Source: an uncultured Gammaproteobacteria bacterium (lineage in GTDB: Bacteria; Patescibacteriota; Microgenomatia; UBA10105; UBA927). Taken from it: a stretch of 64,000 nucleotides of DNA. The DNA lies in contig CAZUOM010000007.1 of the NCBI GenBank assembly GCA_964621305.1, positions 5,422 to 69,421 on the forward strand. Direction: 5' to 3'. Below, piece by piece: positions 1 through 35,338 of the stretch. Positions within the stretch are counted from its first letter, which is position 1, and the number at the start of each line of letters is the position of its first letter. A program made the position numbers and the translations under genes. The notes under the pieces were generated by a model. That model ran no database searches, was not told the origin of the DNA, and worked only from the letters and a program-made list of their open reading frames with translations.

Positions 1-780
1 GTACCGATCCTTACGGTGGTCCCAGTTGCGGCTTTGGTGGCCTTTTACCATCGTCATATCCAACAGAACATCTTTCCCTGGACCAGTTACCTAAGATGGG
101 AGAAGGTAGAGTATCCCATTAGGGTTTCTGACTATCTACAGGCATTGGGTCCAACCGTTCCTTTGTTCCTTCTTGCACTTGTTTGGTTGTGGAAGAGAAA
201 GAGTGCTGGTAGGCTATTGATTGCCTGGGTGGCAAGCAGTTGGATCGGGCTTTTTTTGGTTCCATACATTCCTTTAAGTAACAGTCGGTACCTTGGCGGA
301 TACCAGTTTATTCCGCTTGCCATCGGGGCGGTTGCTGGAATCTGGCGGCTGAGGTATCCGGTGGCCCGAGCGGTTATGGCGATGGCGCTTCTGGGTTACT
401 TTTCAGTTGGACTTTTGGCGTCTTGGAGAGAGCATGTCGGGTACGTGGAACAAAACAAAAACAGTATCCAAGTTTATGTGCCAAACGATCTTACGGATGC
501 GTTTCGTTTTATTGAAAAAAATACGTCCAAAGACAGCGTCATTGCGGCCCCCTATGAGATTTCTACGATGATTCCGGCCCTCACTGGACGCCGCGTGGTT
601 GCCGGACACCCCATGATGACCTATCAAGCGCAAGAGAAACGAGCGGATCTTGAAAAAATTTTGTCCGGACAAGTGAGAAAATACAACCCATCCTACCTTC
701 TTGTACCAACTTCCCATCGACTGCCGTATCCGGTGGCTTTTACCAATTCTTCCATCGTTTTATATAAATTTCCGAATTGA
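1..780 (+). CDS. 5'-truncated CDS: C-terminal part of a polytopic membrane protein. It belongs to the YfhO-distant paralog family seen at 5725, 7275, 11683 and 31594, and is a putative GT-C glycosyltransferase.
   Basis: The reading frame is open from base 1, so the gene starts upstream of the window. The product has multiple hydrophobic helices. Its C-terminal soluble motif (APYEISTMIPALTGRRVVAGH...) matches the C-termini of the other four paralogs. Confidence 0.55.
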   Translation, partial: VPILTVVPVAALVAFYHRHIQQNIFPWTSYLRWEKVEYPIRVSDYLQALGPTVPLFLLALVWLWKRKSAGRLLIAWVASSWIGLFLVPYIPLSNSRYLGGYQFIPLAIGAVAGIWRLRYPVARAVMAMALLGYFSVGLLASWREHVGYVEQNKNSIQVYVPNDLTDAFRFIEKNTSKDSVIAAPYEISTMIPALTGRRVVAGHPMMTYQAQEKRADLEKILSGQVRKYNPSYLLVPTSHRLPYPVAFTNSSIVLYKFPN

Positions 781-1412
781 AAAAATGCCGACGTGCCGTG
801 TTTCCTTGGGTAGTGGCGTACACCAACTTCTGCAAAGCGAGCGCCTGATTTTTGCAGTTTGCAAATTAACTCAAGACAGATGACGCCGCTTGTGCTCGTG
901 AGGACAATGTTTTTTAGTAGCGAACGCCGGATGAGACGAAAATCGCAATCAATATCCCGGATTGGGATGGAGTAAAGGCGATGAAGGGCCCAATTGTAGA
1001 GTGTGCCCATGACGCGACGGATCATTGGGTCGCTCCGGCGGACTTTATATCCGTTGACCACATCAATCCCCGGGCCGAGTTTGCTTGCCAGCTTTTTTAG
1101 TTGGTTCGGGTCATATTGGCCATCGCCGTCAGTATAAAACACCCAGTCGTAATTTGACGCGGCAAAACCGGCTCGTAGCGCCCCGCCGTAGCCACTAGGG
1201 TAGCGGTGACGGACAGCACGAAGGCGGGGGTATTTTTTGGCAAGTTTTTTTAAGACACCCGGTGTGTCATCAGTTGACCCATCGTCGATGACGATAATTT
1301 CGTATGCGTTAGTTATGACACGAGCCACCCGATCGGCTTTTGCAACCAGCTCCGGCAAAACCGGCGCGTCGTTGAGCGTGGGGAAGAAGATGGATAGAGA
1401 AGAAAGTCTCAT
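693..1412 (-). CDS. Family 2 glycosyltransferase (DPM1/GtrB/CsbB-like polyprenyl-phosphate sugar synthase)
   Basis: Motifs include LSIFFPTLNDAPVLPELV, a DxD-type region (EIIVIDDGSTDDT) and YTDGDGQYDP, typical of GT-A fold GT2 enzymes. It overlaps the downstream gene by 4 bp. Confidence 0.85.
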   Translation of the reverse strand: MRLSSLSIFFPTLNDAPVLPELVAKADRVARVITNAYEIIVIDDGSTDDTPGVLKKLAKKYPRLRAVRHRYPSGYGGALRAGFAASNYDWVFYTDGDGQYDPNQLKKLASKLGPGIDVVNGYKVRRSDPMIRRVMGTLYNWALHRLYSIPIRDIDCDFRLIRRSLLKNIVLTSTSGVICLELICKLQKSGARFAEVGVRHYPRKHGTSAFFQFGNLYKTMEELVKATGYGSRWEVGTRR

Positions 1413-2584
1413 GTTGCAAAGTAGCCGCGGGTAAAAAGCGTCATGTATGCCAGGAATAATATGAAGGAGATAGTAAAGCAGGCGAGCTTAATGAGCCAGT
1501 GCCTGGAGATGAGCAGGAGGCAGATTGTCAGATACATGGGGAAGAGGTGCAAGCCGTAGCGCGGGAAACCGGCGAAGGTGCCGGTGATAGTGGGAATAAG
1601 GACTGAGACAAAGAAAAAGACCCAGTATGACGGTCGAATTTTTTTATATGCATAAATGAGGAGGGCGATGAGGAAAAGAACAAACCCCAGTTCTCCGACT
1701 GCCACCCAATAGTTGAGTTTGGCCGGATCTGCCGTGATAAGAATTTTGAAATACCGCCAAAACACCTGAAGCGGAAACACCGGTTTATCCTGTTCCCAAA
1801 CCTTCATCGCATCAAAAAGTGCATACCAGCTGCCAAATTTATACTGGACGTAAGAGAGGTAGCCAGCAAATGCACCGGGAATGAGCAGGAATGAAAAAAA
1901 AGGTTTCCAGTTCGCGATTTTAACTGCCGTCAGATACTCGACGATTAAATACCAAAATAACGCCAGCCCGTTAAGACGAGTCAGTGTGGCAAAGGCTCCG
2001 GCAAGACTTGCTGCAAGCCAACGTTTTTGTCTGCCCCAGTAAATGGAAAGCGTAGCAAGAAAGAAAAAGAGTGAATCGTTGTAGACGGCGCCATAATAAA
2101 AGCTCGTGGGCCAAGATAGCACGATGAGGAAAACAAGCGGGACGAGGGAGGCGAGGCGATCTAGAACTAAAAGCTTTCGAATAACGAAAAGTGCTGCCAC
2201 TAGGGCGGCAAGAGAGACGAGCTGTCCAGCGATAAGGAGGGGCAGGCCCGTTAATTTTCTTACCACCCACATGGCCGCAGGGAAAAGCGGAAAAAAAGGC
2301 TGTTGGCCATGAAGATAACCTTCCTGTTGGGCCACTGCCATGTAATAGAAGCCGTCGAGGTTTCCCCATACCCAGAGGCCATATGGAAGGTCCAGGCCGA
2401 ACTGGGTGAATTTTATATCGCGGATAGCGGTCAAGGGTTCTTGTAGCGGCATGAGACCTGCCAGTCCATAGGAAGCTGCAATAATTGCTATTTTCCAAAG
2501 AATTACCAAGCCGACGACAAAGAGAAAAAAACGACTAGACATATTGGAAAAACCGTTTAAGAGAGTCAACGATATAGTAAACAT
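1409..2584 (-). CDS. Polytopic membrane protein, putative GT-C mannosyltransferase-like (PIG-V/DUF2029-like)
   Basis: The product has more than 10 predicted transmembrane helices and a W..NLDG.YY motif. A more likely start is the internal Met at 2542 (MSSRFFLF...). The gene sits in an operon-like run with the GT2 gene. Confidence 0.5.
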   Translation of the reverse strand: MFTISLTLLNGFSNMSSRFFLFVVGLVILWKIAIIAASYGLAGLMPLQEPLTAIRDIKFTQFGLDLPYGLWVWGNLDGFYYMAVAQQEGYLHGQQPFFPLFPAAMWVVRKLTGLPLLIAGQLVSLAALVAALFVIRKLLVLDRLASLVPLVFLIVLSWPTSFYYGAVYNDSLFFFLATLSIYWGRQKRWLAASLAGAFATLTRLNGLALFWYLIVEYLTAVKIANWKPFFSFLLIPGAFAGYLSYVQYKFGSWYALFDAMKVWEQDKPVFPLQVFWRYFKILITADPAKLNYWVAVGELGFVLFLIALLIYAYKKIRPSYWVFFFVSVLIPTITGTFAGFPRYGLHLFPMYLTICLLLISRHWLIKLACFTISFILFLAYMTLFTRGYFAT

Positions 2585-3653
2585 CCTTCTTTGTCAGAAA
2601 TTCGTGGAAAGGTAAAGAGATAACCCTATCTGATAGGCGTTCCGCTACGGGGAAATCGCCACGCCTACGGCCAAGCATGGCAAATGCAGGAACCAGGTGG
2701 ACGGCGTGTGGATAGTGGACTAGGGTAGGAATTTTTTTTGATGAAAGATACACGCGCATTCTGTCTCGTTGGTCGGTATCTATGACCAATAGGTGGGGAG
2801 CGGGCGTACTCAAAGGATGAGAAGACAAAAGTCTAACTTTTGTATCAATATTTGATACGTTTATTGCTTCTTTATACCACTGGTAAACCAGATGACGTTT
2901 TTTTTGATTTTTGGGAAATACTCTTAGTGCCGCAAGTAGGCTTGCTGCCTGAAGTTCCGGTAGCCTGCTGTGGCCGGCAATACGTTGGCTTTCGTACTTG
3001 ACTATTTCACCGTACTGTTTGGCGCCTCTTATGAAAGAAGTGATGCTTTTGTTTTTGGTACAGATCGCCCCTCCGTCGCCGGCTGAGCCGAGATTTTTGG
3101 TTGGATAAAAGGAAAAACATCCAATATCGCTAAGCGTTCCTACGGGTTGACCTTTCCATGTGGCGCCAAATGCCTGTGCGCAATCTTCGATGAGACTGAT
3201 GCGAAGATTGGTGCATAACGTACGGATAGGATCCACATTTCCTACAAGTCCGTACATATGGACCAAAATAACGACTTTTGTTTTTTTTGTGATTATCGCT
3301 TGAAGGAATGTTGGATCCAACTGGCCATTTTGGTCTACGTCGGCAAGGACGGCTGTTGCACCGGATAGGACAACGGGGAAAGCCGTCGGGTAGGCATTTG
3401 CCGGGATGATGACTTCATCAGATGGAGTAAGATCCAGTGACTGGAGAGCCAGGAGGAGCGCGTCATGACCACTTGCACATGTTGTGACCCTGCCTTGGCC
3501 GAGTTTTTTTTCTAAAGATAGCGACAGGCGTGCGTTTTCTTTCCCTTCTAAAAATACTCCGGACTCTGTCACCCGAGAAAAAGCAGCGAGCAATTCTTTT
3601 TTATGATCGACGGCTGCCTGTTGCACACCGTTGAAAGAAATATAGGGTCGCAT
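2535..3653 (-). CDS. DegT/DnrJ/EryC1/StrS-family PLP-dependent sugar aminotransferase
   Basis: The start is called at the internal Met (MRPYISF...) rather than the ORF maximum at 3809. The sequence shows the typical fold-type I sugar aminotransferase pattern (GHDALLLALQSLDL..DEVIIPANAYPTAF, SFYPTKNLGSAGDGGAI). Confidence 0.85.
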   Translation of the reverse strand: MRPYISFNGVQQAAVDHKKELLAAFSRVTESGVFLEGKENARLSLSLEKKLGQGRVTTCASGHDALLLALQSLDLTPSDEVIIPANAYPTAFPVVLSGATAVLADVDQNGQLDPTFLQAIITKKTKVVILVHMYGLVGNVDPIRTLCTNLRISLIEDCAQAFGATWKGQPVGTLSDIGCFSFYPTKNLGSAGDGGAICTKNKSITSFIRGAKQYGEIVKYESQRIAGHSRLPELQAASLLAALRVFPKNQKKRHLVYQWYKEAINVSNIDTKVRLLSSHPLSTPAPHLLVIDTDQRDRMRVYLSSKKIPTLVHYPHAVHLVPAFAMLGRRRGDFPVAERLSDRVISLPFHEFLTKKDVYYIVDSLKRFFQYV

Positions 3654-3663
3654 GTCCTTAACA

Positions 3664-4257
3664 TTAGTCTCGTTGGGGTTTCCAAAAGTCTCTGCCTTGT
3701 ATGTCCCATGGCAGACGATGCTCGTCGGGGTTTTGTAGATCGAACTGCTCAGAAGCACAGTAGAGAATTGGTACCGGTTGACTGGTGAGATTAACGGATC
3801 CGTGTGCAACTCCTGCTGGTATCAGAAGCATCGTTGGTCCGGATTTACCCATCACGAGGCGAGATATGATGCCGTTGGTTGGAGACGTTTTCCTTATATC
3901 CCAGAGGCCAACGATAAGGTGCGCATCTGTTGGAACATACCAAAGCTCATCTTGAATGAAGTGGAGGTGCCAAGCTTTTATTGCACCAGGATACTGGAGG
4001 CTTCGGGATATTTGTCGGACATGAAAGCTTGGCATATCCTCAAGGTGGCCATGAGCGTTGAGTTTAAATATTTCAACAAAATCACTATCTTCTGACACGT
4101 GATGTGTGCGTGAAAGTGTTTCGACTCCGTGGATTGTCTTCGCATGTCCGTACGATTGGGTGTAGACGCTTTTGCGCACGGAGTCGTTTATGTCGTCGAT
4201 GGTGATGGGTCTATTCATTACCCTGTCATTATCCTTTACCGGAGCCATTTTCGTCAA
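3664..4257 (-). CDS. RmlC-like cupin (dTDP-4-dehydrorhamnose 3,5-epimerase family / sugar ketoisomerase)
   Basis: The cupin core WHLHFIQDELWYVPTDAHLIVGLWDIR...LLIPAGVAHGSVNL and the tail EHRLPWD match RmlC-type epimerases. The start may lie at a downstream Met. Confidence 0.65.
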   Translation of the reverse strand: MTKMAPVKDNDRVMNRPITIDDINDSVRKSVYTQSYGHAKTIHGVETLSRTHHVSEDSDFVEIFKLNAHGHLEDMPSFHVRQISRSLQYPGAIKAWHLHFIQDELWYVPTDAHLIVGLWDIRKTSPTNGIISRLVMGKSGPTMLLIPAGVAHGSVNLTSQPVPILYCASEQFDLQNPDEHRLPWDIQGRDFWKPQRD

Positions 4258-4445
4258 GCAGACTTTGGCTTGGTAGCAATAGCTATGATGCCAACACCTA
4301 ATGGTAGGTTGAAAAAGCGCAGAACGAAGGCTTCAGCAAAGAGAACGTGTGACAAGATGTTATTGATAAATCTTGGCAAGACAAGGATGCTTGATGTGTC
4401 AATTTTTGGGAGATGGAGGAAGCCAGCGATTGCGTTAAGCATCAT
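4254..4445 (-). CDS. Hypothetical small protein (63 aa) bridging the RmlC-like and methyltransferase genes
   Basis: This ORF fills the 184-bp gap and overlaps both neighbours by 4 bp. No recognisable domain was found. Confidence 0.2.
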   Translation of the reverse strand: MMLNAIAGFLHLPKIDTSSILVLPRFINNILSHVLFAEAFVLRFFNLPLGVGIIAIATKPKSA

Positions 4446-5011
4446 GACTGGAAAAAATACCGCGTTTGCGTATGAAAGTTTATTGATGTAAAAGCCTGAC
4501 GACAGCAGTTTTTTTGCAATCCGTTTTTGGTATAGCGTTCTCTTGTATGGACAAGTCGGTCATGAAACGTCATAAACAGAGGATGGGCGGGAACACGAAC
4601 AATGAGCAACCCCCCTGGTTTGAGTGTCCGGTAACATTCACGAAGTGCACGTTGGTCGTTGACAAGTCGGTGATATAAAACATCCATGCTTACAATCACG
4701 TCAAAAGAATTATTACGATAGGGAAGTTCGTTGACCGATGCGATACTAGCGTTGACATGAGCTGCTTTGGCAAGTTTTACCGCAATCGGAGAAATGTCTA
4801 TGGCATCCACTTGGCCAAACTTATTGAGGTCTTTGACCAGGTGACCAGTGCCACAGCCGGCATCGAGTATATGGAAAGAGTTCATGGGCAGGTGAGTGTG
4901 TAATTTTTGGAGATAGTTTTTAAGCAGTGAGACAATGATGGCACGATTACCTACGTAGTAGAAGTGACTTGCTTGACGTGTGGCAACAGCGTAGTATTCA
5001 GACGTTTTCAT
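4442..5011 (-). CDS. Class I SAM-dependent methyltransferase
   Basis: It carries motif I (ILDAGCGTGHL) and a post-I acidic residue (VDAIDIS), followed by SFDVIVS...LKPGGLLIV. Confidence 0.85.
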   Translation of the reverse strand: MKTSEYYAVATRQASHFYYVGNRAIIVSLLKNYLQKLHTHLPMNSFHILDAGCGTGHLVKDLNKFGQVDAIDISPIAVKLAKAAHVNASIASVNELPYRNNSFDVIVSMDVLYHRLVNDQRALRECYRTLKPGGLLIVRVPAHPLFMTFHDRLVHTRERYTKNGLQKNCCRQAFTSINFHTQTRYFFQS

Positions 5012-5040
5012 GATAATCGTATTGTATACTGACTGAAAGT

Positions 5041-5781
5041 ATGTTAAAAAGATCTAATATAGTGGTCGTGATGCCTGCGTACAACGCAGCACGCACGCTT
5101 GGTGAGACAGTAAGAGAGATCCCCAAAGGCTTTGCAAAAAAAATTATCCTCGTGGATGACGGATCAACCGACGGTACAGTTGCTTTGGCCAAAAGGCTGG
5201 GCATCACTGTCTTCGCTCATCCGGTAAATACCGGCTACGGCGGAAACCAAAAAACGTGCTACTGGGAGTCGCTTAAGTTCAAACCTGATGTTGTCGTTAT
5301 GCTTCACCCGGATTACCAGTATGACGGTAGCCGACTGCCGAACTTGGTAGCCCCCATTTTATCCGGAGAATGCGGCATGATGATAGGTTCACGGATTCGC
5401 ACTCGGCACGAAGCCCTCGTCGGCGGTATGCCGGTCGTGAAGTATTTTTTAAATAGAATTCTGACGACAATAGAAAATATGGTGTTGGGGGTAAATCTAT
5501 CCGAGCATCTATCGGGTCTGCGAGCGTATTCTAGAAACGTCATCATGACGGTCCCGTTTCAGCGATTCTCCAACGATTTTGTTTTTGACCAGCAGTTCCT
5601 TATCTCAACGTTAACCCATGGTTTTCTCGTCGGCGAAATTCCGGTCCCAGTCCGTTACCACGAGAAGGCTTCATCAATCGGCTACCTTGCTGGCACCAAA
5701 TTTTTGTTGGAAACATTTTGGTGCTTATTGTTGTATGTCCTCCATTCGTTTCGTATCTACCGATCGACCTGGTACGAGTGA
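5041..5781 (+). CDS. Family 2 glycosyltransferase
   Basis: Motifs include VVVMPAYNAARTL, ILVDDGSTDGT and YQYDGS..L (GT-A fold). Confidence 0.85.
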   Translation: MLKRSNIVVVMPAYNAARTLGETVREIPKGFAKKIILVDDGSTDGTVALAKRLGITVFAHPVNTGYGGNQKTCYWESLKFKPDVVVMLHPDYQYDGSRLPNLVAPILSGECGMMIGSRIRTRHEALVGGMPVVKYFLNRILTTIENMVLGVNLSEHLSGLRAYSRNVIMTVPFQRFSNDFVFDQQFLISTLTHGFLVGEIPVPVRYHEKASSIGYLAGTKFLLETFWCLLLYVLHSFRIYRSTWYE

Positions 5782-8906: not shown

Positions 8907-9766
8907 AGTGTTACTTATGTCGCTGCCAAATGCAGACATTTATTAAAAAAAATGGTTACGAAATTTGGGATTGTCCTAATTGCGGCTTTAAGTCGACGGA
9001 TTTACACCAGGATTATAAGATTTTTGTTCAGAAATTTTATTCTCAGGAATATTTTACAGGCGATCCGACACGAGGTGCTTACTTTGATTACAAAAGAGAC
9101 AAACCCTACATAGTTCGAAACATGAAGAAAGTTCTTACAAAAATTAAGCTATATAAAAGAGGTGGCCGTTTGTTAGACGTTGGTTGTGCAATGGGATTTT
9201 TTGTCGAGCTAGCTTTGGATGCTGGATTTGACGCGTATGGCATAGACCCTTCACATTATGCAATTTCAAATCGCGCCGAAAATCTTAACGGAAGGCTGCA
9301 GATGGGAACAGTTGATACTATCCGTTTTGCCGCTAAATCTTTTGACGTGATTACCATGCTTGATGTCATCGAGCACTTACCAGATCCGAGAAGAGTTCTA
9401 AAGAAAGCACTTACTCTTCTTAAAGACGACGGAATTGTTGTCATCGCAACCGGTGATACAGATAGTGTATATGCAAAAATCTTTAAGCGACGCTGGACGT
9501 TTTACAATCCGCCCCAACACTTACATTTCTTTTCGCGCAGAATTTTCCTTAAGTTCTTGCTAGAAACCGGATTCAAACCTTTGACAACATTTATTATCGG
9601 AAAATGGTTAAGCTTGAGGTACGTATTGCACTTGGCAAAAACAGGAGCAGAAAGCATTTTTGCTGGCAGGCTTTCTTATTTAGTTAAAAAAATCAGAATT
9701 GACTGGCTGCCCCTTTTTTTGCCGGCGCGCGACAACTTCGTCGTTATTGCCAGAAAGACAAAGTGA
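8903..9766 (+). CDS. Class I SAM-dependent methyltransferase with an N-terminal Cys4 zinc ribbon
   Basis: The zinc ribbon is C-x2-C...C-x2-C (CRCQ...CPNCG). Motif I is LLDVGCAMGFF, and DVITMLDVIEHL is also present. Confidence 0.8.
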   Translation: MKCYLCRCQMQTFIKKNGYEIWDCPNCGFKSTDLHQDYKIFVQKFYSQEYFTGDPTRGAYFDYKRDKPYIVRNMKKVLTKIKLYKRGGRLLDVGCAMGFFVELALDAGFDAYGIDPSHYAISNRAENLNGRLQMGTVDTIRFAAKSFDVITMLDVIEHLPDPRRVLKKALTLLKDDGIVVIATGDTDSVYAKIFKRRWTFYNPPQHLHFFSRRIFLKFLLETGFKPLTTFIIGKWLSLRYVLHLAKTGAESIFAGRLSYLVKKIRIDWLPLFLPARDNFVVIARKTK

Positions 9767-13245: not shown

Positions 13246-13248
13246 TAT

Positions 13249-25320: not shown

Positions 25321-25326
25321 TCGCGC

Positions 25327-27419: not shown

Positions 27420-27426
27420 ATTTTAC

Positions 27427-28194: not shown

Positions 28195-28222
28195 CTCTCA
28201 TTGTCATAGAATTGGTATTGCT

Positions 28223-28453: not shown

Positions 28454-28863
28454 AAATATTCTTAGATACGAACGTCTTTGTCCGATTCTTCATGCCGGAG
28501 GACGAACAGACGCATGTGGTAGTCCGATCGGTTATCGACCTCTGCGCGACGGGAGGGTTTCGACCATACACGTCCTCTTTCGTGCTTTTGGAATGCTCCT
28601 TTGTGCTTGGCCGTATCTATAGTTTCCCCGATGATCGCGTGCAGGACTGTCTTGAGAAAATTATTGCAACGCGTAACATGACGGTTGTGGATACGTGTGA
28701 TAGCAAAAAAGCCTTGGCCTTGTGGAAGAAAACGCGCGTAAAGTTTACTGACTGCCTCATCGCGACCCAAGTGCCGCAGGGCGTGACCATCGTCACGTAC
28801 GACCGCGATTTTGCCAAACTCCCGGTGAAAGCGAAAACACCCAAGGAAGTTCTCGGATCATGA
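28450..28863 (+). CDS. vapC: PIN-domain ribonuclease toxin
   Basis: It starts MKIFLDTNVFVRFF (first acidic residue in LDTN), with later D/E residues, TDCLIATQ and IVTYDRDFAKL. Confidence 0.8.
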   Translation: MKIFLDTNVFVRFFMPEDEQTHVVVRSVIDLCATGGFRPYTSSFVLLECSFVLGRIYSFPDDRVQDCLEKIIATRNMTVVDTCDSKKALALWKKTRVKFTDCLIATQVPQGVTIVTYDRDFAKLPVKAKTPKEVLGS

Positions 28864-30095
28864 AGCGCAATGCTCCCGTCGTATTCTTCGGATTGTTTTG
28901 TATAGGCGTTGTTTTCCGACTCTGGTTTGTCTCGCTTGTTACTCAGCCATTTGTATATGACCAGGAGGAGTACTATGGATATGCCCTCGGAATACTCAAA
29001 AACGGCCTTCACGCGGATCTCTATCGGCTCTACGGGTACCCGCTGATCATAACACCGCTCATTTATTTCTTCGGCGTGACAAGTCCGCTGCCGTGGACAA
29101 TTTTTCATGCGATCCTTGACACGACGACGGCATTTTTGGTCTTTTGGATAGGGAAAAAGTTGTTTCACAGTGAGAAACCTGCGTGGATTGCTTTTATTCT
29201 CTATCTCTTTAATCCGTTTACTGCAGGCTACGTAGGGGTTTTATTAAGCGAGATCATAGCGATTTTTTTTACAGCCTTGATTTTTGTCTTTTTTTTAGTG
29301 GATGCCGAGAAGCCTCGACTTCTCACCGGCAGTTTTCTGGCTTTCTTATTAGGCTACTACGTCCAGATTAAACCGGGATTTTTGTGGTTTAGCCTTATTG
29401 CCTTAGCCGTAGTTGTGATAAGGAGGATTAGAATAGTAGCCGTGATGATGGTTCTTTTTCTTCTTCCTTTTTCATATAATCTCGTCGGTAACTGGAAGGC
29501 GTTTGGGGAAGTTAACCCCATGATGGTTGACCGTGTGTTTGCGCGGGAGCTTTACACAAGTCTATTTATTGGCCGGGGACTCGCATTTACCGATACGCAG
29601 TTTGGAGTGTGGCCGCAGGAAGCATACGAGGTTTGGAATGAGCTCTCACGCCCAAAAAATGCGCGCGAGCGTGATACTGTTGCAAAAAAATATATTGATT
29701 CGGCGCTAGCCAAAATTAAAAGCGATCCGGTCTGGTTTATCCGGACCAGGATAGCAAAGATGGGATACGTATGGGAAAAACATTTTGTCTTTCCGTATGC
29801 TCAAGGCAAGAGCGGTGATTTAACTAAAAGCGTAATATACTGGGGAAATCTGGCGATTCTGGGATTGGCAATAGTAGGATTTGTTAGATGGATAAGAGGG
29901 ACAAGAGGGATTAGGGGCATCGGGTCTCTGGTGATACTCCTCGTGGTTTATATTTCCGCTGTACACGCTTTTTCCACATCAGAGGAGCGGTTTTCGCTGC
30001 CGGCGTATCCCATGGTTTTTCTGTTTGCCGGATATGGACTGTGGTTGGTTGGGAGAAGCAAGCTGTTTAAGGCCGCTGTCATAGATAAACGTTAG
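28860..30095 (+). CDS. ArnT/PMT-like GT-C membrane glycosyltransferase
   Basis: The loop 1 motif is YDQEEYYGYALGI and YLFNPFTAGY is conserved. It is a paralog of the gene at 25327-26490. It carries a 9-nt in-frame repeat at 29902-29937. Confidence 0.6.
   Translation: MKRNAPVVFFGLFCIGVVFRLWFVSLVTQPFVYDQEEYYGYALGILKNGLHADLYRLYGYPLIITPLIYFFGVTSPLPWTIFHAILDTTTAFLVFWIGKKLFHSEKPAWIAFILYLFNPFTAGYVGVLLSEIIAIFFTALIFVFFLVDAEKPRLLTGSFLAFLLGYYVQIKPGFLWFSLIALAVVVIRRIRIVAVMMVLFLLPFSYNLVGNWKAFGEVNPMMVDRVFARELYTSLFIGRGLAFTDTQFGVWPQEAYEVWNELSRPKNARERDTVAKKYIDSALAKIKSDPVWFIRTRIAKMGYVWEKHFVFPYAQGKSGDLTKSVIYWGNLAILGLAIVGFVRWIRGTRGIRGIGSLVILLVVYISAVHAFSTSEERFSLPAYPMVFLFAGYGLWLVGRSKLFKAAVIDKR
29902..29937. repeat. 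9-nt in-frame imperfect repeat x4 inside the GT-C gene at 28860-30095
   Basis: Read directly from the sequence: ataagagggacaagagggattaggggcatcgggtct. It encodes IRGTRGIRGIGS. Confidence 0.7.
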
Positions 30096-31604
30096 AGGAA
30101 CACCTTGAATGCTTACTGTGTAAATTGGTTGCCTGTTTTTCATGTATTCGGTAATTCCCCAGTAACGAGTAAAAAAAGATTCCCTGTTGAGAAGCACAAC
30201 GTAACTAGCTTCATCAAATCCCTTTTGGTTCACATGGGCGGTAAGATCCGGGCGCAAGTACTTGGCTGCTGCATCTGCCGCCATCACGATATGGACGTAG
30301 CTATCCTTTGGAGCGTTAGCGTTTAGCCAGCGGATAGCTTGCTTTTGAGAGGTGCCCCAGTACTCGACATCAAATTTGTGCCAGGCGCCGCGGATTCCAC
30401 CCACTAGCTCGTTGAAGTAGGAGATTTGGTAAGGGTGATAGGAGGTAATCTGTAAAATTAAGTAACCGAATATTCCCAACGTAATTATAGCTAAGAAAGG
30501 CTTTTTCACATTGTTAAATTGTTTCATTGTTAAATTGTTAAAAAATCGAAACGCATTTGCGGTGCCAACTGCCGCAATCGCCGCCAGCGGAAAAACTACT
30601 TCTTCAAAGTGGCGGATGCCGTCGATGACGCCGATCTTGGGGTTGAGATAGCGAATAAGAGGAATGAAAAACCAAAAGAGAAGTAGAGAGGCGACGGGTT
30701 TTTGTCTGATTTGCCTAATTAGTCTAATTAGTCCAATTAGGAAAAAAACCAAGACGGGAACAGGCGTCGTAACCGCCAAGTACCCGAAAGGGTAATGCCA
30801 GGGGACGTTGACGCCGGATTTGTAGATGTTGCCAAAATAGAGGACTTCTAGGTTTTGAGTGTTGTCTAGAAAAAATCGGAACATGTAGGTGAGCCGTTCG
30901 ATTGGATTGGGCCACAAGGGGAGCCAGAGGAGGAGAGCGGCGGCTGGCGCCAGAAGAAAGTATAGTAAGAAGAAAATCTTTTTCTTATCTATTATCCAAG
31001 CGCCGGTTATCACTGGCACAAAAAGAGTATTGACCTTAGTGTTGAAGGCGATTGCAAATGAGAGGCAGGCGAGAACTAGATCTTTGACGCGTTTGTACTT
31101 TACCAGTCTCCAAAAAGCGTAGATAGCTAGAGCAAATGCCGCCGCTTGTGGAACATCCTTCATGTTGTTGTGGAGGTCGCCGAAGTAGCGAGGCAAAAGC
31201 GCGAGAAACGTAAATCCAGCAAGAGCAGTTAGAAAGCCAAATGATTCTAAAAGGAATAAATAGAGTACAAAAATTCCGATTACGCCTGAAACGATTATGG
31301 ACAAGTGATAGGCGTTGTCAAATGGGAGAATCTTGAATTTTTCAAAAAAAAGTTGGTTCGTTGCCGCTGGACCAATCACCATCAGGGGCCCAAAAGGCAA
31401 ATCGTAAGTGCCGCGGGGGTCCGGTATGGTGAAGGGAATATTTTTGGTGAGTTCTTCTTTGACCGGAATCCCCAAGTGCCAGAGCCCTGCAAAAAAGTGA
31501 TGGTGGAAGTCCCACGTGACGCCGTAGTCGTCAATAATCACCAGATGTACAACTAGTAAAAGTATAGTAAGAGCTATTCCTATTTTTACGTGTTTACTTT
31601 TCAT
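29979..31604 (-). CDS. ArnT/PMT_2-like GT-C membrane glycosyltransferase
   Basis: It starts TWDFHHHFFAG... and contains AYHLSIIVSGVIGIF...LPRYFGDLHNNMKDVPQAAAFALA. It carries repeat tracts at 30508-30539 and 30715-30741. It overlaps the convergent gene by 117 nt. Confidence 0.65.
   Translation of the reverse strand: MKSKHVKIGIALTILLLVVHLVIIDDYGVTWDFHHHFFAGLWHLGIPVKEELTKNIPFTIPDPRGTYDLPFGPLMVIGPAATNQLFFEKFKILPFDNAYHLSIIVSGVIGIFVLYLFLLESFGFLTALAGFTFLALLPRYFGDLHNNMKDVPQAAAFALAIYAFWRLVKYKRVKDLVLACLSFAIAFNTKVNTLFVPVITGAWIIDKKKIFFLLYFLLAPAAALLLWLPLWPNPIERLTYMFRFFLDNTQNLEVLYFGNIYKSGVNVPWHYPFGYLAVTTPVPVLVFFLIGLIRLIRQIRQKPVASLLLFWFFIPLIRYLNPKIGVIDGIRHFEEVVFPLAAIAAVGTANAFRFFNNLTMKQFNNVKKPFLAIITLGIFGYLILQITSYHPYQISYFNELVGGIRGAWHKFDVEYWGTSQKQAIRWLNANAPKDSYVHIVMAADAAAKYLRPDLTAHVNQKGFDEASYVVLLNRESFFTRYWGITEYMKNRQPIYTVSIQGVPLTFIYDSGLKQLASPNQPQSISGKQKNHGIRRQRKPLL
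30508..30539. repeat. 16-nt unit x2 (CATTGTTAAATTGTT[T/A]), two octamers related to the 13894 tract, inside the GT-C gene at 29979-31604
   Basis: Read directly from the sequence: cattgttaaattgtttcattgttaaattgtta. Confidence 0.8.
30715..30741. repeat. 9-nt in-frame repeat x3 (CTAATTAGT) inside the GT-C gene at 29979-31604
   Basis: Read directly from the sequence: ctaattagtctaattagtccaattagg. It encodes LIGLIRLIRQ on the minus strand. Confidence 0.8.
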
Positions 31605-33102
31605 AGATTGTGACCGTTTGTGCGCCGTAAAGTTCTTTAAGAAAATTATATTTTAGTTGGAATTGAGACTTATCTCCGTCAAAATTAGTGAAGAAAATAT
31701 ACTTTATGTTTTGGCGGGCAAGCCACTGGCGTGCTTGGTCAGAAGTCATATTTTTGGCGAAAAATTTTGAGGATATTGCTTTTTTTTCATTGCTACTGAT
31801 CGTTGCAAACGCGTGGCCGGTGTAGCTAGTATGCCCGCTTAGGGCGGGGACTATGGAATCCATGTGGGTAGCTGGACTGGCAAGAACCACGTCACTTAAA
31901 GGGCTTAAGGAGCTTAAGTAGGTAAAACCATCATAGATTTCTCGCGGTAGGTACAAGAGGGGTATTCGCTCATGGGGTCTGACAACTAGTTTTTGTTGGA
32001 TTTCCCAGTATAAGGTAGGAAGGGTGAGAAGAAAAAAGATAGATAAAAGAATAATTTGAAATTTGAAATTTGAAATTTTAAATTTAAGTCCCTCTACGGC
32101 GAGCGCCCCCCAGAAGACGTAGAGAGCGGGGAACAGAACCCGGCTGTTGGAGACGCCGAGAAATTTAGGAATTGGTGAAAAGAAAAGAAGGTAACAAATG
32201 ATTAAAAGGACAGCGCCAAAAGTCATAATTGGTTTAGGCTTTAGGAATATGGAGCGTAACCCTAAAACTCCTAAAATAACTATCGGTCCTATCGATAGCA
32301 TCATAAAAAGCCCAGTTGTAGCGACCTGCTGACCGGCCTCCCAAAGTTTGGATTGGATATGGGGTTGGGTATTAGTGAGGCTGTTGTAATAGAGGGCAAC
32401 GATAAGAAAAACTACGGAAACTAAAAAATTTCCCCGGCCGGTTATCCACGACGTGAGGAGAAATAGCCCTGACACTACTGGGTTGAGTGTTGTAAGAAGG
32501 GTGATCAAGACAGTTGAGAAAATCAATTTTCTTTTTTGAATAAAAAACCATACGTAAACGAGGAGCAAAAACAAAAGCGTTTGCACTAGCTGGTGTGGAA
32601 CGGCACCTAAGCGGTCGAATGCAAGGTTGGGAGTTTTCCAAAGCAGAAATGGATACCACATGAATGTGCCGTCAACCCAGATGCGGTTCATAAAAGATGT
32701 AGCTGTTGTGGTAAAAAAAAATGCAATGAGAGCTTTTGACTTATTGTTATTAAATACGGATTGCATGAGTTGATAGGTGAAAAATAGTATGGTAAAAGAT
32801 AGAAGAAATACTGAGAGGTTGTATGACCATTGCGGTGCCAACCCGCCGGCTCCACCCAATTTCCCCAAAAGGATATTCGGCCAAAACATGATGCTTGGAC
32901 TGATTGCCTCGGTCGTGTATCTGTTTGCCGTCAGCCACGCCCCATGAGCAGCCTGAGTAAAGTGGTTAAGATAGAAAAAATAATCTTCATAATAGTGAGT
33001 GGTACCCAGGTAGACTTCTCCTGGTTTTGTGTTAATGACACCGGAAAAAAAGTTGATGGAGTTGAGGGATGAAAGAAACAGAATGAAAAAGAGAACAATC
33101 AT
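31594..33102 (-). CDS. Polytopic membrane protein of the YfhO-distant paralog family
   Basis: The N-terminus (THYYEDYFFYLNHFTQAAHGAWL) and C-terminus (VVLASPATHMDSIVPALSGHTSYTGH) match the family. A heptamer repeat lies at 32053-32086. Confidence 0.6.
   Translation of the reverse strand: MIVLFFILFLSSLNSINFFSGVINTKPGEVYLGTTHYYEDYFFYLNHFTQAAHGAWLTANRYTTEAISPSIMFWPNILLGKLGGAGGLAPQWSYNLSVFLLSFTILFFTYQLMQSVFNNNKSKALIAFFFTTTATSFMNRIWVDGTFMWYPFLLWKTPNLAFDRLGAVPHQLVQTLLFLLLVYVWFFIQKRKLIFSTVLITLLTTLNPVVSGLFLLTSWITGRGNFLVSVVFLIVALYYNSLTNTQPHIQSKLWEAGQQVATTGLFMMLSIGPIVILGVLGLRSIFLKPKPIMTFGAVLLIICYLLFFSPIPKFLGVSNSRVLFPALYVFWGALAVEGLKFKISNFKFQIILLSIFFLLTLPTLYWEIQQKLVVRPHERIPLLYLPREIYDGFTYLSSLSPLSDVVLASPATHMDSIVPALSGHTSYTGHAFATISSNEKKAISSKFFAKNMTSDQARQWLARQNIKYIFFTNFDGDKSQFQLKYNFLKELYGAQTVTIYEK
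32053..32086. repeat. (AATTTGA)x~4.7, the reverse complement of the TCAAATT heptamer tract, inside the membrane gene at 31594-33102
   Basis: Read directly from the sequence: aatttgaaatttgaaatttgaaattttaaattta. It encodes KFKISNFKFQI on the minus strand. Confidence 0.9.
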
Positions 33103-33118
33103 TGGTACTATTATATCA

Positions 33119-34579
33119 ATGAAAGAATCGTTGCATCGAATAATACCGTTCTTGTTGTATGGAGTTAGCTTCTTGTTATTAGTTTACTTCTTATGGTGGC
33201 ATGGCGTATTTGCCGTTTACAGGTATTTTGATGTCGATGAGTTTGCTCATCTTCATTGGATCAGCCATATGATCATGGGCAAATGGCCGTATAGGGACTT
33301 CCTCACGTTTTTTCCTCCCGGATTTTTATGGTTTTTGGCGCCTTCGTTTGCAATAGGCTGGGGGACGGTGACGCCTATTCTGACGGCACGCCTGATGATG
33401 TTTGCAGTATTTGTGGGCATTGTCGCCTCCGCCGGGCTTCTTTTTTGGGAAATGCGTCGGTCGTGGGTTGCCGTCATTGTGCCACTTTTATTGGCGTTTT
33501 TGCCTCTTCCGTTTGATAAGTTTGTCGAAATCCGGCCTGATAATCCGGCGGCACTTTTCCTTTTGGTTGGCATGTATTTTCAGGTCAGGTGGATGCGAGA
33601 AGGAAGACGTCTGAGTGCATTTGCTGCAGGTTTTTGCTATAGCACGTCGGTGCTCGTATTGACCAAGATGGTGCCGGCTGTAATGCCTGGTATTGGCCTG
33701 GCATTGTGGGAACTATCCAGGGGCAATAGAACAGCAACGCGTTTCTTTTTTGGTTTCGGTTTTCCGCTAGGGATAGTCGGATTGTGGCTTCTTACTCTGG
33801 GGGATGTGGGAACGGTATTGTACTCACTCGTGCAATTGCCAATTGAAGCAAATAAAATCAGCACAATATTTTTTATGGCTCCGGATTTATTTTTTTATCC
33901 TAACGGCATTTTTTACGGTACCAATGGCTGGAGTCGTGAACTTTTGTCAAATCACTTGTTGTGGATCGTTGGACTCACTATTGGAATCTATAGATTGGTG
34001 ACGGCATTTGGAAAGTCGGAACTGCTTGTTGCTGGGACCTTTATCCTGCAGGTTGTCATGTACATTCAGTTCGTTCCTCTCAAGCACGCGCAGTATCTAG
34101 TTCCGATTGCGCCGTTTGTGGCGTGGTATGTGGCTGATGGAGTCGGCATGATCTGGAAGAAGGTCGGGGGGATCGCATTTGCAGCGGCATTTTTGGTCGC
34201 AGCTTTTTATCTTTTTGACACAAGCGAGTCGGTGAATAGGCCTAAGCTTGGCTGGACGAATAATGAAGCAATCGCATTTTTGAAAAACCTTTATACGACG
34301 ATTCCAAAAACAGAATATATACTGGATCTCGATGGTCGGACTCTGTATTACCCGGATCCGTATTATGCTTGCTGTATACCATTTGGTCAGTTTGCGCCCT
34401 TTTTGAGCAGGCAGCTTCCGTCGCTTGCTGCTGTCCTTGAAAAAACACAAACAAGATATATTTACCAAGGCCAACTGGAGCGGGTGAAAACATTGCTCCC
34501 AGAGGACCAGGAGTATATTCTCAGTCGGTACAAGCAATTGGTCAATGGCGATCCACAGCTGCTTATTCGTACGAATTGA
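33119..34579 (+). CDS. ArnT-like GT-C membrane protein
   Basis: It contains DVDEFAHLHWISHMIMGKWPYRDF after TM1. The start is called at the internal Met to avoid overlap with the divergent gene; the ORF maximum begins at 33029. Confidence 0.5.
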   Translation: MKESLHRIIPFLLYGVSFLLLVYFLWWHGVFAVYRYFDVDEFAHLHWISHMIMGKWPYRDFLTFFPPGFLWFLAPSFAIGWGTVTPILTARLMMFAVFVGIVASAGLLFWEMRRSWVAVIVPLLLAFLPLPFDKFVEIRPDNPAALFLLVGMYFQVRWMREGRRLSAFAAGFCYSTSVLVLTKMVPAVMPGIGLALWELSRGNRTATRFFFGFGFPLGIVGLWLLTLGDVGTVLYSLVQLPIEANKISTIFFMAPDLFFYPNGIFYGTNGWSRELLSNHLLWIVGLTIGIYRLVTAFGKSELLVAGTFILQVVMYIQFVPLKHAQYLVPIAPFVAWYVADGVGMIWKKVGGIAFAAAFLVAAFYLFDTSESVNRPKLGWTNNEAIAFLKNLYTTIPKTEYILDLDGRTLYYPDPYYACCIPFGQFAPFLSRQLPSLAAVLEKTQTRYIYQGQLERVKTLLPEDQEYILSRYKQLVNGDPQLLIRTN

Positions 34580-35332: not shown

Positions 35333-35338
35333 GTATAT

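What the first reader, a model, noticed from the sequence alone, without database searches (positions are those of the whole stretch)
1..34579. Extreme local expansion of GT-C membrane transferases: 3 YfhO, 5 YfhO-distant paralogs and 5 ArnT/PMT-like genes, interleaved with 5 GT2 genes
Three YfhO genes sit in tandem at 9763, 13249 and 15918. Five paralogs of a second family share the N-terminal (D/H)YY..(D/Y)FYL...G motif and a conserved C-terminal soluble domain (..SG.Y.S.MIPA.TG..V..GH), at 1-780, 5725, 7275, 11683 and 31594. Five ArnT/PMT-like genes sit at 25327, 28860, 29979, 33119 and possibly 1409. GT2 genes (polyprenyl-P-sugar synthases) are placed next to them. This is the three-component GtrB/GT-C logic of extracytoplasmic glycosylation, repeated many times. 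The second family may be a distant YfhO relative, given its analogous N-terminal motif. Its specific function appears uncharacterised.
Basis: partly seen in the sequence, partly recalled or inferred. Interest (0 to 1): 0.6.

Follow-up and report, generated by a model that had tools for sequence, protein, structure and literature searches.

The report
Dense cluster of membrane glycosyltransferase genes
A 35-kb stretch of an ultra-small groundwater bacterium (Candidatus Gottesmanbacteria) carries 13 membrane sugar-transferase genes, five of them from a large uncatalogued family that structure prediction places in the known GT-C class, which suggests a complex and unstudied sugar coat is built on the cell surface.

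Summary
Window 1-34579 carries 13 GT-C-type membrane glycosyltransferase genes, which cover 59% of the DNA:
- 3 YfhO genes, all above the Pfam threshold.
- 5 members of a family with no Pfam or NCBIfam model.
- 4 ArnT/PMT_2-like genes.
- 1 PIG-V (GT76)-like gene at 1409-2584.

The uncatalogued family gives a confident AlphaFold model (pLDDT 95). Its 25 best PDB matches are all GT-C enzymes: STT3, PglB, AglB, DPY19, AftA, AftD, ArnT and ALG9. An invariant Asp sits in the first outside loop.

A specific link to YfhO is not supported; the relation is at superfamily level only. GT2 genes number 3 inside the range, not 5. No GtrA or Wzx flippase was found.

The paralogs are 19-32% identical and there are no long DNA repeats. 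The gene order recurs in 15 related MAG loci. This is an old, conserved locus, not a misassembly or a recent burst.

The family has more than 5,500 clusters at 50% identity. Every member that carries a name comes from Patescibacteria or Microgenomates and is called hypothetical.

The most likely function is extracytoplasmic glycan building from polyprenyl-phosphate sugars. The acceptor is unknown.

Side finding: perfect 7-nt tandem repeats lie inside several of these genes. They are possible phase-variation tracts.

The parts
1..780 (+). Family-2 GT-C paralog a (C-terminal 259 aa; the full gene is 504 aa on the source contig)
   Evidence: Outside-only profile E 3e-21. The full-length copy on L021 carries the EDYYYYLH motif, profile E 1.7e-49.
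693..1412 (-). Soluble GT2, candidate polyprenyl-phosphate sugar synthase
   Evidence: PF00535 at 8e-27. Best NCBIfam match is ArnC at 3e-21, then PgfS and AglJ, all below the curated cut-offs.
1409..2584 (-). PIG-V/Gpi18-like (GT76) GT-C membrane protein; the NCBI call is 377 aa
   Evidence: No Pfam hit for the protein itself. Many homologs carry PF04188; P0207 scores 38.5 bits against a cut-off of 22.4. JGI names one homolog 'Gpi18-like mannosyltransferase'.
2535..5011 (-). Sugar-nucleotide tailoring genes: DegT aminotransferase, cupin dTDP-sugar isomerase-like protein, SAM methyltransferase
   Evidence: Pfam PF01041, PF00908 and PF08241.
5041..5781 (+). Soluble GT2, candidate polyprenyl-phosphate sugar synthase
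   Evidence: PF00535 at 2e-18. Best NCBIfam matches are PpgS at 5e-20 and AglJ at 8e-19, below the cut-offs.
5725..7275 (-). Family-2 GT-C paralog b
   Evidence: Outside-only profile E 1.5e-29. No Pfam or NCBIfam hit.
7275..8906 (+). Family-2 GT-C paralog c
   Evidence: Profile E 8e-48. Orthologs 55-60% identical in L003 and L005.
8903..9766 (+). SAM methyltransferase, conserved next to YfhO and family 2 in relatives
   Evidence: PF13489 at 9e-27. Synteny in L003, L005 and L012.
9763..11757 (+). YfhO GT-C
   Evidence: PF09586 at 1.9e-23, 83 bits.
11683..13245 (-). Family-2 GT-C paralog d
   Evidence: Profile E 3e-104. It is 32% identical to 31594-33102.
13249..15921 (+). YfhO GT-C fused to a C-terminal HAD-IIIA (GmhB-like) phosphatase, residues 715-875; contains the heptamer array at 13590-13619
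   Evidence: PF09586 at 38 bits. TIGR01656 at 1e-19, TIGR01662 at 55 bits against a cut-off of 44.6, GmhB at 1.8e-16. Tandem repeat output.
15918..18107 (+). YfhO GT-C; contains the heptamer array at 16251-16282
   Evidence: PF09586 at 42 bits. Tandem repeat output.
17989..23641 (+). Sugar-nucleotide genes: HldE-like heptose kinase/adenylyltransferase, epimerase, thiamine-dependent E1 alpha and beta subunits, DegT aminotransferase
23634..25320 (+). Soluble GT2 followed by two small 3-TM proteins (a GacI/GacJ-like arrangement; possible membrane partner or flippase)
   Evidence: PF00535 at 3e-26. TM counts. No family hit for the small proteins. The order GT2, sm1, sm2, PMT_2 is conserved in L008 and L020.
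25327..26490 (+). PMT_2 (ArnT/PMT-like) GT-C
   Evidence: PF13231 at 3e-12, 47 bits.
28860..30095 (+). PMT_2-like GT-C, paralog of 25327-26490
   Evidence: BLASTP 2.6e-18 over about 400 aa. No Pfam hit of its own.
29979..31604 (-). PMT_2 (ArnT/PMT-like) GT-C
   Evidence: PF13231 at 1e-9, 39 bits.
31594..33102 (-). Family-2 GT-C paralog e (the modelled member); contains the heptamer array at 32053-32085
   Evidence: AlphaFold pLDDT 95.2, pTM 0.93. The top 25 Foldseek PDB hits are all GT-C. 11 TM helices, N-terminus in and C-terminus out.
33119..34579 (+). ArnT-like GT-C with an invariant loop-1 D-x-D-E motif
   Evidence: PMT_2 only at 1.4e-3. Model pLDDT 94.4. All 27 Foldseek PDB hits with E<=0.001 are GT-C enzymes; ArnT 5f15 has TMq 0.59. 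D38, D40 and E41 are invariant.
34613..37059 (+). Soluble GT2, hexapeptide acyltransferase and DegT aminotransferase (just outside the stated range; a conserved block)
   Evidence: Synteny in L005, L010 and L013-L016.
39333..42290 (.). GT2 with 3 C-terminal TM helices (two heptamer arrays), and a convergent 10-TM protein with a TPR domain; the conserved outer end of the locus
   Evidence: The membrane domain of the TPR protein matched no family.

Best explanation
The region is a conserved cell-envelope glycosylation island of a Candidatus Gottesmanbacteria genome (Microgenomates, Patescibacteria).

It encodes 13 GT-C-fold membrane glycosyltransferases from five sequence families:
- YfhO, 3 genes.
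- An uncatalogued GT-C family ('family 2'), 5 genes.
- Two PMT_2 subtypes, 3 genes in all.
- An ArnT-like type with a D-x-D-E loop, 1 gene.
- A PIG-V-like type, 1 gene.

These sit among genes that make unusual nucleotide sugars: amino, N-acyl, methyl, heptose and possibly branched sugars.

Inferred mechanism:
1. Small soluble GT2 enzymes load the tailored sugars onto polyprenyl phosphate at the inner face of the membrane.
2. The lipid-linked sugars are flipped to the outer face by an unidentified component.
3. Each GT-C enzyme transfers one kind of sugar to an acceptor at the outer face.

In family 2 the active site would be formed by the invariant Asp40 in the first outside loop, together with conserved Arg164, His170 and Arg321 in other outside loops. 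A C-terminal alpha/beta domain of about 120 residues faces outward.

The locus holds many divergent GT-C enzymes in a conserved order. This suggests they act on one product, each with its own specificity, building or decorating a lineage-specific surface glycopolymer or glycoconjugate. That would resemble the Emb/Aft enzymes of mycobacteria or the lumenal ALG enzymes.

Shown: the fold class, family membership, conservation, topology and synteny. Inferred: the donor type, the sequential action and the acceptor.
For: - Family assignments.
- Family-2 model: pLDDT 95.2. Foldseek against the PDB gives 25 GT-C enzymes, with E from 7e-8 to 4e-3 and TMq up to 0.59 for AftA. The next hit is at E 0.08 with TMq 0.12.
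- The 33119 model gives the same class, with ArnT as the best TM-score.
- In family 2, D40, Y41, Y44, G54, G80, P208, G272 and P419 are invariant in 49 sequences. The same Asp and two Arg are invariant in 40 more distant members.
- Topology: the short loops carry K/R and no acidic residues. All conserved polar residues fall in the long loops on the opposite side. There are 11 TM helices, so the C-terminal domain faces out.
- GT2 best matches are ArnC, PpgS, AglJ, PgfS and dolichyl-phosphate hexose transferase.
- The order GT2, two small 3-TM proteins, PMT_2 mirrors the GacI/GacJ/GacL scheme described in PMC8035078.
- Conserved gene order in 15 loci from independent MAGs.
- Each window paralog has its own orthologs elsewhere.
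- Family size: 5,543 clusters at E<=1e-3.
Against: - No biochemical data exist for any member.
- No GtrA or Wzx flippase was found in the window.
- All GT2 matches to lipid-phosphate sugar synthases are far below the curated cut-offs, and two of the GT2s have PgaC as their top partial hit.
- There are far fewer GT2 genes than GT-C genes, so a one-to-one pairing does not hold.
- No acceptor candidate was identified. No Ser/Thr-rich proteins were found nearby.
- Fold similarity has a TM-score of only 0.5-0.6 and sequence identity of 10-14%.
- Profile comparisons with the other local GT-C families are not significant.
Confidence: 0.7

Rival explanations
1. Family 2 and its neighbours are protein glycosyltransferases, OST-like or PMT-like. 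They would modify S-layer, pilin or other surface proteins rather than building a polysaccharide or lipoglycan.
For: - The best Foldseek E-values are to STT3, AglB, PglB and DPY19, all of which modify proteins.
- YfhO C-termini and GT2s match the streptococcal Pgf protein O-glycosylation proteins PgfM1, PgfM2 and PgfS.
- Three pseudopilin-like genes lie at 42279-44010.
Against: - No WWDYG-type motif or large OST periplasmic domain is present; the C-terminal domain is only about 120 aa.
- The best TM-score is to AftA, a polysaccharide arabinosyltransferase.
- No Ser/Thr-rich acceptor proteins were found in the window.
- E-value ranking among GT-C hits at 10-14% identity does not discriminate acceptors.
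Confidence: 0.2
2. Family 2 is a divergent subfamily of YfhO. It would work like YfhO in teichoic-acid-type glycosylation.
For: - Family-2 genes are interleaved with three YfhO genes.
- Both have an acidic/aromatic motif after TM1. hhalign aligns exactly these segments.
Against: - The hhalign probability is 1.4%.
- There is no Pfam YfhO hit at E<=10 for any member or for 40 distant relatives.
- Family 2 is 500-550 aa and has a soluble C-terminal domain. YfhO here is 664-890 aa and has a terminal TM helix.
- The weak sequence links point to PMT_2 and Dpy19 instead.
Confidence: 0.05
3. The family-2 proteins have the GT-C fold but are not catalytic. They could be scaffolds, acceptor-binding partners of the smaller GT-Cs, or transporters of lipid-linked sugars.
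For: - PMC8035078 speculates that small GT-C enzymes may need partner proteins for acceptor binding.
- No flippase was found, and the GT-C genes outnumber the GT2 genes.
Against: - The loop-1 Asp and two outside-loop Arg are invariant across more than 80 diverse members. Arg164 is Lys in 5725-7275. This pattern is expected for a catalytic and phosphate-binding site.
Confidence: 0.07
4. The apparent expansion is an assembly artefact or a very recent tandem duplication.
For: The sequence comes from a metagenome-assembled genome.
Against: - The paralogs are 19-32% identical at protein level.
- No direct or inverted DNA repeat longer than 39 nt occurs in 1-36 kb.
- A Logan assembly of run SRR6261452 reproduces part of the locus.
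- 15 loci from other MAGs share the order.
Confidence: 0.01

Closest known systems
ArnT / PMT_2 / RgtA-D type GT-C enzymes (Pfam PF13231; CAZy GT83 and GT39) with the ArnB, ArnC, ArnT pathway logic
   Same: - Same GT-C fold, with ArnT among the Foldseek hits.
- Similar size, about 500-550 aa.
- An acidic residue in the first outside loop.
- Neighbouring ArnC-like GT2, DegT (ArnB-like) aminotransferases and acyltransferase.
- UniRef auto-names one family-2 member 'RgtA/B/C/D-like domain-containing protein'.
   Different: - No family-2 member matches PF13231, even at E<=10.
- The only link is a weak profile hit to 29979-31604, at 4.6e-4 in a 53-sequence search.
- The motif is different: D-Y-x-x-Y-L.
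- The C-terminal domain has its own conserved P-A-x-S/T-G-H...G-H motif.
STT3 / PglB / AglB oligosaccharyltransferases (GT66) and the DPY19 C-mannosyltransferase
   Same: - Best Foldseek E-values, 7e-8 to 1e-5, with TMq 0.43-0.55.
- A multi-TM core followed by a soluble domain on the outside.
- The partial paralog has a weak Dpy19 Pfam hit (0.003).
   Different: - No sequence similarity to any PDB chain.
- Much smaller outside domain.
- No WWDYG motif.
- The context suggests single sugars on polyprenyl monophosphate rather than a lipid-linked oligosaccharide. This last point is inference.
Mycobacterial Emb/Aft arabinosyltransferases (AftA, AftB, AftD, EmbA-C)
   Same: - AftA gives the highest TM-score for family 2, 0.59.
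- They are an organism-level precedent for many divergent GT-C paralogs acting in turn on one cell-envelope polymer from a polyprenyl-phosphate sugar.
   Different: - No detectable sequence similarity.
- Different phylum and envelope.
- The donor here is unknown.
- The genes here are packed into one conserved locus.
YfhO with CsbB and GtcA, the multi-component transmembrane glycosylation systems of Gram-positive bacteria (PMC5836110, PMC7389260, PMC8035078)
   Same: - Three true YfhO genes are present.
- The general GT-A plus GT-C logic applies.
- There is a soluble GT2 followed by small 3-TM proteins, as in GacI/GacJ.
   Different: - Family 2 is not a YfhO by any sequence test.
- No GtrA/GtcA family protein was found.
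- The window has 13 GT-C genes per locus, compared with one to three pairs per genome in Firmicutes.
'Component 27', the YfhO-like dark glycosyltransferase family found with AlphaFold models (Durairaj et al. 2023, PMC10584680)
   Same: It is another large bacterial GT-C family recognised only through predicted structure, and it also matches STT3/PglB at TM about 0.6.
   Different: - Component 27 proteins are about 665 aa and carry an InterPro YfhO annotation.
- Family 2 is about 500-550 aa with no YfhO signal.
- Identity between the two was not tested directly.
- The window's three YfhO genes are the more likely relatives of component 27.

Membership tests
GT-C fold glycosyltransferases (GT-C_A class): applied to family 2 | Multi-TM core whose structure superposes on solved GT-C enzymes | tested here: met
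   Model pLDDT 95.2. Foldseek PDB ranks 1-25 are all GT-C, with E from 7e-8 to 4e-3 and TMq 0.38-0.59. After that there is a cliff to E 0.08 and TMq 0.12.
GT-C fold glycosyltransferases (GT-C_A class): applied to family 2 | Conserved acidic residue (a DxD-like or modified motif) in the first extracytoplasmic loop | tested here: met
   D40 is invariant in 49 sequences and in 40 distant members. It is present in all five window paralogs.
GT-C fold glycosyltransferases (GT-C_A class): applied to family 2 | The conserved loops face the outside of the membrane | tested here: met
   The positive-inside pattern on the model's helices gives 11 TM helices, with the N-terminus in and the C-terminus out. 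Conserved D40, E65, R164, H170 and R321 are in the outside loops. This is a computational result only.
GT-C fold glycosyltransferases (GT-C_A class): applied to family 2 | Uses a lipid-phosphate-linked sugar donor | not testable with these tools
   This needs biochemistry. The only support is context, namely ArnC/PpgS/AglJ-like GT2 neighbours.
YfhO (Pfam PF09586): applied to family 2 | Match to the family HMM above the gathering score | tested here: not met
   No hit at E<=10 for four members or at E<=0.01 for 40 relatives. hhalign against the window YfhO alignment gives 1.4% probability.
YfhO (Pfam PF09586): applied to 9763, 13249 and 15918 | Match to the family HMM above the gathering score | tested here: met
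   83, 38 and 42 bits against a cut-off of 28.5.
PMT_2 / ArnT-like (Pfam PF13231): applied to family 2 | Match to the family HMM above the gathering score | tested here: not met
   No hit at E<=10. There is only a weak indirect profile link to 29979-31604.
PMT_2 / ArnT-like (Pfam PF13231): applied to 25327, 28860, 29979 and 33119 | Match to the family HMM above the gathering score, or clear homology to a member | tested here: met
   - 25327: 47 bits, and 29979: 39 bits, against a cut-off of 26.1.
- 28860: BLAST 2.6e-18 to 25327.
- 33119: 19 bits, which is below the cut-off, so it is not a Pfam member. It is GT-C by structure, with ArnT as the best TM-score.
PIG-V / Gpi18 mannosyltransferase (Pfam PF04188, GT76): applied to 1409-2584 | Match to the family HMM above the gathering score | tested here: inconclusive
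   The window protein has no hit at E<=10. About 25 of its 120 listed homologs, at 38-50% identity, carry PF04188. P0207 scores 38.5 bits against a cut-off of 22.4.
Three-component (multi-component) transmembrane glycosylation system | GT-A enzyme that makes a polyprenyl-phosphate sugar | tested here: inconclusive
   GT2 domains are clear. The best NCBIfam matches are ArnC, PpgS, AglJ and PgfS, but all are far below the cut-offs.
Three-component (multi-component) transmembrane glycosylation system | GtrA-type or Wzx-type flippase | tested here: not met
   No PF04138 or Wzx hit in any ORF of at least 150 aa. No further small membrane ORFs were found. The two 3-TM proteins at 24332-25320 match no family. 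A flippase could be encoded elsewhere in the genome.
Three-component (multi-component) transmembrane glycosylation system | GT-C enzyme that transfers the sugar outside the membrane | tested here: met
   13 GT-C genes.

The most novel reading that the evidence does not exclude
Microgenomates bacteria may build a lineage-specific envelope glycopolymer almost entirely on the outer face of the membrane. The builders would be a conserved line of six to more than a dozen divergent GT-C enzymes, and the uncatalogued family 2 would be the core of that line. Individual steps could be switched on and off by slippage at heptanucleotide repeats inside the transferase genes. This would give these ultra-small episymbionts a variable sugar coat, as in host-adapted pathogens.
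Probability: 0.2. Interest if true: 0.75.

Novelty: new member of a known kind. Interest (0 to 1): 0.5.

Why it matters
Patescibacteria make up a large share of bacterial diversity, live attached to other cells and have tiny genomes. Almost nothing is known about their surface chemistry: my searches of the held paper library found nothing that links GT-C enzymes, YfhO or phase variation to this group.

This genome devotes 59% of a 35-kb conserved locus to GT-C enzymes. That argues that extracytoplasmic glycan assembly is central to their biology.

Family 2 has more than 5,500 sequence clusters and no Pfam or NCBIfam model, so it is a clear candidate for a new curated family and a new CAZy GT-C family. 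It offers defined residues to mutate (D40, R164, R321).

The heptamer tracts, if variable, would be the first sign of contingency loci in this radiation.

Tried and rejected
- Sequence searches of family 2 and of the 33119 type against all PDB chains, with single sequences and profiles, found nothing meaningful.
- Profile-profile comparisons of family 2 with the window YfhO alignment and with the 33119 family gave 1.4% and 2.8% probability. A sequence-level link was therefore dropped.
- NCBIfam and lax Pfam scans gave nothing useful for family 2, the two small 3-TM proteins, the membrane part of the 10-TM/TPR protein at 40353-42290, or the extra genes upstream on the contig. The 10-TM/TPR protein remains unassigned; it could be a Wzy/WaaL-like ligase or another GT-C.
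- A search for Ser/Thr/Pro-rich acceptor proteins in the window found none.
- I looked for copy-number variants of a heptamer tract. One metagenome scan with flanks and a variable gap found a single contig of the same length. Look-ups of neighbouring proteins found only the source genome. Polymorphism is therefore untested.
- An assembler k-mer collapse was considered as the cause of the uniform 30-35 nt tracts. It was rejected because the tracts occur in assemblies with different contig-naming styles, all keep the reading frame, and one carries an internal mismatch that is identical in two assemblies.
[quoted passage not shown] The single paper holding both 'Gottesmanbacteria' and 'glycosyltransferase' was not opened.

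Full report
**Source and layout**

The window is record 8238-72237 (reversed) of contig SBBN01000017.1, a 77.7-kb contig of MAG GCA_005239695.1. Close homologs of its genes are named Candidatus Gottesmanbacteria, Microgenomates or Patescibacteria. ORFs are tightly packed, with hardly any intergenic space.

**Checking the observation**

Pfam confirms three YfhO genes at 9763-11757, 13249-15921 and 15918-18107, all above the gathering score. They are 38-42% identical to each other.

The 'second family' is real. The four full-length copies and the partial one are 19-32% identical and find each other by BLAST. A profile built only from outside homologs hits exactly these five ORFs and nothing else in the window, with E from 2e-216 to 3e-21. 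The truncated first gene is complete on the contig. It is 504 aa and begins with the predicted EDYYYYLH motif.

The ArnT/PMT-like genes:
- 25327-26490 and 29979-31604 pass PMT_2.
- 28860-30095 is a paralog of 25327.
- 33119-34579 is sub-threshold for PMT_2, but structure shows it to be GT-C (see below).
- 1409-2584 belongs to a group whose members often match PIG-V (PF04188). It is a GT-C of a different family.

GT2 genes number three inside 1-34579. A fourth starts at 34613 and a fifth at 39333. In all, 13 GT-C genes occupy 59% of 34.6 kb. Just beyond the window start, the contig holds another paralog of 33119, and an 8-TM protein with an NPCBM sugar-binding domain.

**Is family 2 a GT-C?**

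No member matches any Pfam or NCBIfam model, even at E<=10. No PDB chain matches by sequence.

I built an alignment of 49 sequences. It gave an AlphaFold model with mean pLDDT 95.2 and pTM 0.93. Foldseek against the PDB returned 25 hits at E<=4e-3, and every one is a GT-C enzyme: STT3 of yeast and human OST, DPY19, AglB, PglB, AftA, AftD, ArnT and ALG9. The next hit is unrelated, at E 0.08 and TMq 0.12.

The model has 11 TM helices. Its short loops (NNNKSK, IQKRK, TGRGN, KPK, KFKISN) carry Lys/Arg and no acidic residues, as expected for cytoplasmic loops. All strongly conserved polar residues (D40, E65, R164, H170, R321) lie in the long loops on the other side. The C-terminal alpha/beta domain, residues 373-502, faces outward. 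The same Asp and two Arg are invariant in 40 more distant relatives.

This is the usual GT-C arrangement: a catalytic acidic residue in the first outside loop, and basic residues placed to hold the phosphate of the lipid donor. The roles assigned to these residues are inference.

**The 33119 type**

Homologs mostly lack Pfam hits. An invariant D-x-D-E motif follows TM1. The model has pLDDT 94.4. All 27 Foldseek PDB matches with E<=0.001 are GT-C enzymes, and GT-C enzymes fill almost all of the list down to rank 42. ArnT 5f15 gives the best TM-score, 0.59.

**Relation to YfhO**

hhalign of family 2 against the window YfhO alignment gives 1.4% probability. It does pair the two N-terminal motifs, which simply occupy the same loop.

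The only weak sequence links point elsewhere:
- A profile of distant family-2 members hits PMT_2-like 29979-31604 at 4.6e-4.
- The partial paralog touches Dpy19 at 0.003.
- One distant member touches DUF6541.
- UniRef auto-names member P0043 'Glycosyltransferase RgtA/B/C/D-like domain-containing protein', although Pfam PMT_2 does not hit it here.

I conclude that family 2 is an independent family of the GT-C superfamily, not a YfhO offshoot.

**Size and spread of family 2**

An exhaustive HMM search of 1.84 billion cluster representatives finds 5,543 at E<=1e-3 and 1,362 at E<=1e-30. Forty of the weaker matches among the 150 listed have no Pfam family. All names recovered are 'hypothetical protein' from Gottesmanbacteria, Woesebacteria, Microgenomates or Patescibacteria.

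**Not an artefact, not recent**

- There are no DNA repeats longer than 39 nt in 1-36 kb.
- A Logan assembly of run SRR6261452 reproduces the 33119 / 31594 / 29979 segment.
- Fifteen loci from other MAGs carry 1-4 family-2 genes per roughly 20 kb, most of them two or more.
- Those loci share a gene order: 10-TM/TPR protein, GT2 with TM helices, a block of either DegT, acyltransferase and GT2 or GT2 and epimerase, ArnT-like, family 2, family 2, PMT_2b, PMT_2a, epimerase, PMT_2a, two small membrane proteins, GT2. Window 23.6-42.3 kb is this locus.
- Individual window paralogs have their own orthologs: 7275 at 55-60% identity, 31594 at 39-57% and 11683 at 33-39%.

The duplications are therefore old and the copies are kept.

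**How it probably works**

The locus also encodes:
- three DegT aminotransferases;
- a cupin sugar isomerase;
- two methyltransferases;
- two epimerase/dehydratases;
- an acyltransferase;
- a carbamoyltransferase;
- a thiamine-dependent E1 pair;
- an HldE-like enzyme, plus a GmhB-like phosphatase fused to a YfhO.

Several unusual activated sugars are therefore likely to be made.

The soluble GT2s of about 235 aa best match ArnC, PpgS, AglJ, PgfS and dolichyl-phosphate hexose transferase. All these matches are below the curated cut-offs. One GT2 is followed by two small 3-TM proteins and a PMT_2 gene, an order conserved in relatives. This recalls GacI, GacJ and GacL in the scheme reviewed in PMC8035078.

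[quoted passage not shown] Lipid-phosphate sugars are made inside and flipped, and many GT-C enzymes of different specificity use them outside. The conserved order suggests they act on one product. The acceptor and the flippase are unknown.

**Comparison with known systems**

The fold, topology and context match known GT-C systems: ArnT with ArnC and ArnB, YfhO with CsbB and GtcA, and the Emb/Aft enzymes. A comparable 'dark' GT-C family was reported from AlphaFold models (PMC10584680). Family 2 is thus a new family of a known kind. Its gene density and conservation in a reduced genome are the unusual aspects.

**Side finding: heptamer repeats**

Tandem Repeats Finder shows perfect heptanucleotide arrays of 4.3-4.7 copies inside YfhO 13249, YfhO 15918, family-2 31594 and the TM-bearing GT2 at 39333, which has two. 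No such array appears in 30 shuffles of the window.

Across 395 kb of window plus related loci:
- 18 of the 23 tandem arrays with at least 3.5 copies and at least 90% match have period 7.
- The well-matched arrays (at least 3.8 copies and 90% match) are all 30-35 nt long, and all keep the reading frame.
- Nearly all lie in loops of membrane glycosyltransferases.
- In the TM-bearing GT2, four genomes carry an array in what appears to be the same loop, each with a different repeat unit.

A repeat unit that is not a multiple of three, kept perfect while its sequence drifts between genomes, is what contingency (phase-variation) loci look like. Against that reading, every array seen is in the 'on' frame and all have nearly the same length. 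I could not obtain any data on copy-number polymorphism. This remains unexplained.

Noticed in passing
window 13590-13619, 16251-16282, 32053-32085, 39485-39517, 40149-40180 (also imperfect arrays at 13766-13799, 13889-13924, 16401-16430, 30510-30542); related loci L003, L007-L010, L015, L017, L018, L020: Perfect heptanucleotide tandem arrays (4.3-5.0 copies, 30-35 nt) lie in frame inside YfhO, family-2, PMT_2 and TM-bearing GT2 genes. 18 of 23 tandem arrays in 395 kb have period 7, and none appears in shuffles. In the TM-bearing GT2, four genomes carry an array in what appears to be the same loop, each with a different unit. These are candidate phase-variation tracts, but every array is in the 'on' frame and no copy-number variation could be tested.
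   Followed up: partly
window 13249-15921 (residues 715-875) and 17989-19536: One YfhO gene is fused to a C-terminal HAD-IIIA phosphatase that resembles GmhB. Two genes downstream lies an HldE-like heptose kinase/adenylyltransferase with its two domains in swapped order. This suggests a heptose is one of the sugars handled by the YfhO branch.
   Followed up: partly
window 46221-56700 and 61926-63673: About ten paralogous genes encode proteins of 255-772 aa with one N-terminal TM helix and conserved Cys/His motifs such as CHVLGHKL, CSHA and HGLGHG. None has a Pfam match. One (49711-52029) is a fusion of two family copies. This is a second local paralog expansion of unknown function.
   Followed up: partly
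window 40353-42290 (-): A 10-TM protein with a C-terminal TPR domain lies convergent with the TM-bearing GT2 and is conserved at the end of the locus in many relatives. Its membrane domain matches no family. It could be a Wzy/WaaL-like ligase or polymerase, or a further GT-C.
   Followed up: partly
window 20516-22529: A thiamine-dependent E1 dehydrogenase alpha/beta pair is embedded between an epimerase and a DegT aminotransferase. This hints at a branched-chain or two-carbon-extended sugar.
   Followed up: no
window 28184-28863 and 38263-39315: PIN-domain toxin genes with small upstream partner ORFs are inserted inside the glycosylation locus. The GC content ranges from 0.39 to 0.49 across 2-kb bins in the first 36 kb, so the island looks compositionally mosaic.
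   Followed up: no
window 42279-44010: Three tandem pseudopilin-like genes carry N-terminal methylation motifs, next to a NodU/CmcH-type carbamoyltransferase at 44161-45864.
   Followed up: no
L021 12209-13615 and 14913-16688 (same contig, beyond the window start): There is a further paralog of the 33119 ArnT-like type (468 aa, FFDPDEFAHL motif). There is also a 591-aa 8-TM protein with a C-terminal NPCBM carbohydrate-binding domain. The GT-C cluster therefore extends past the window.
   Followed up: partly
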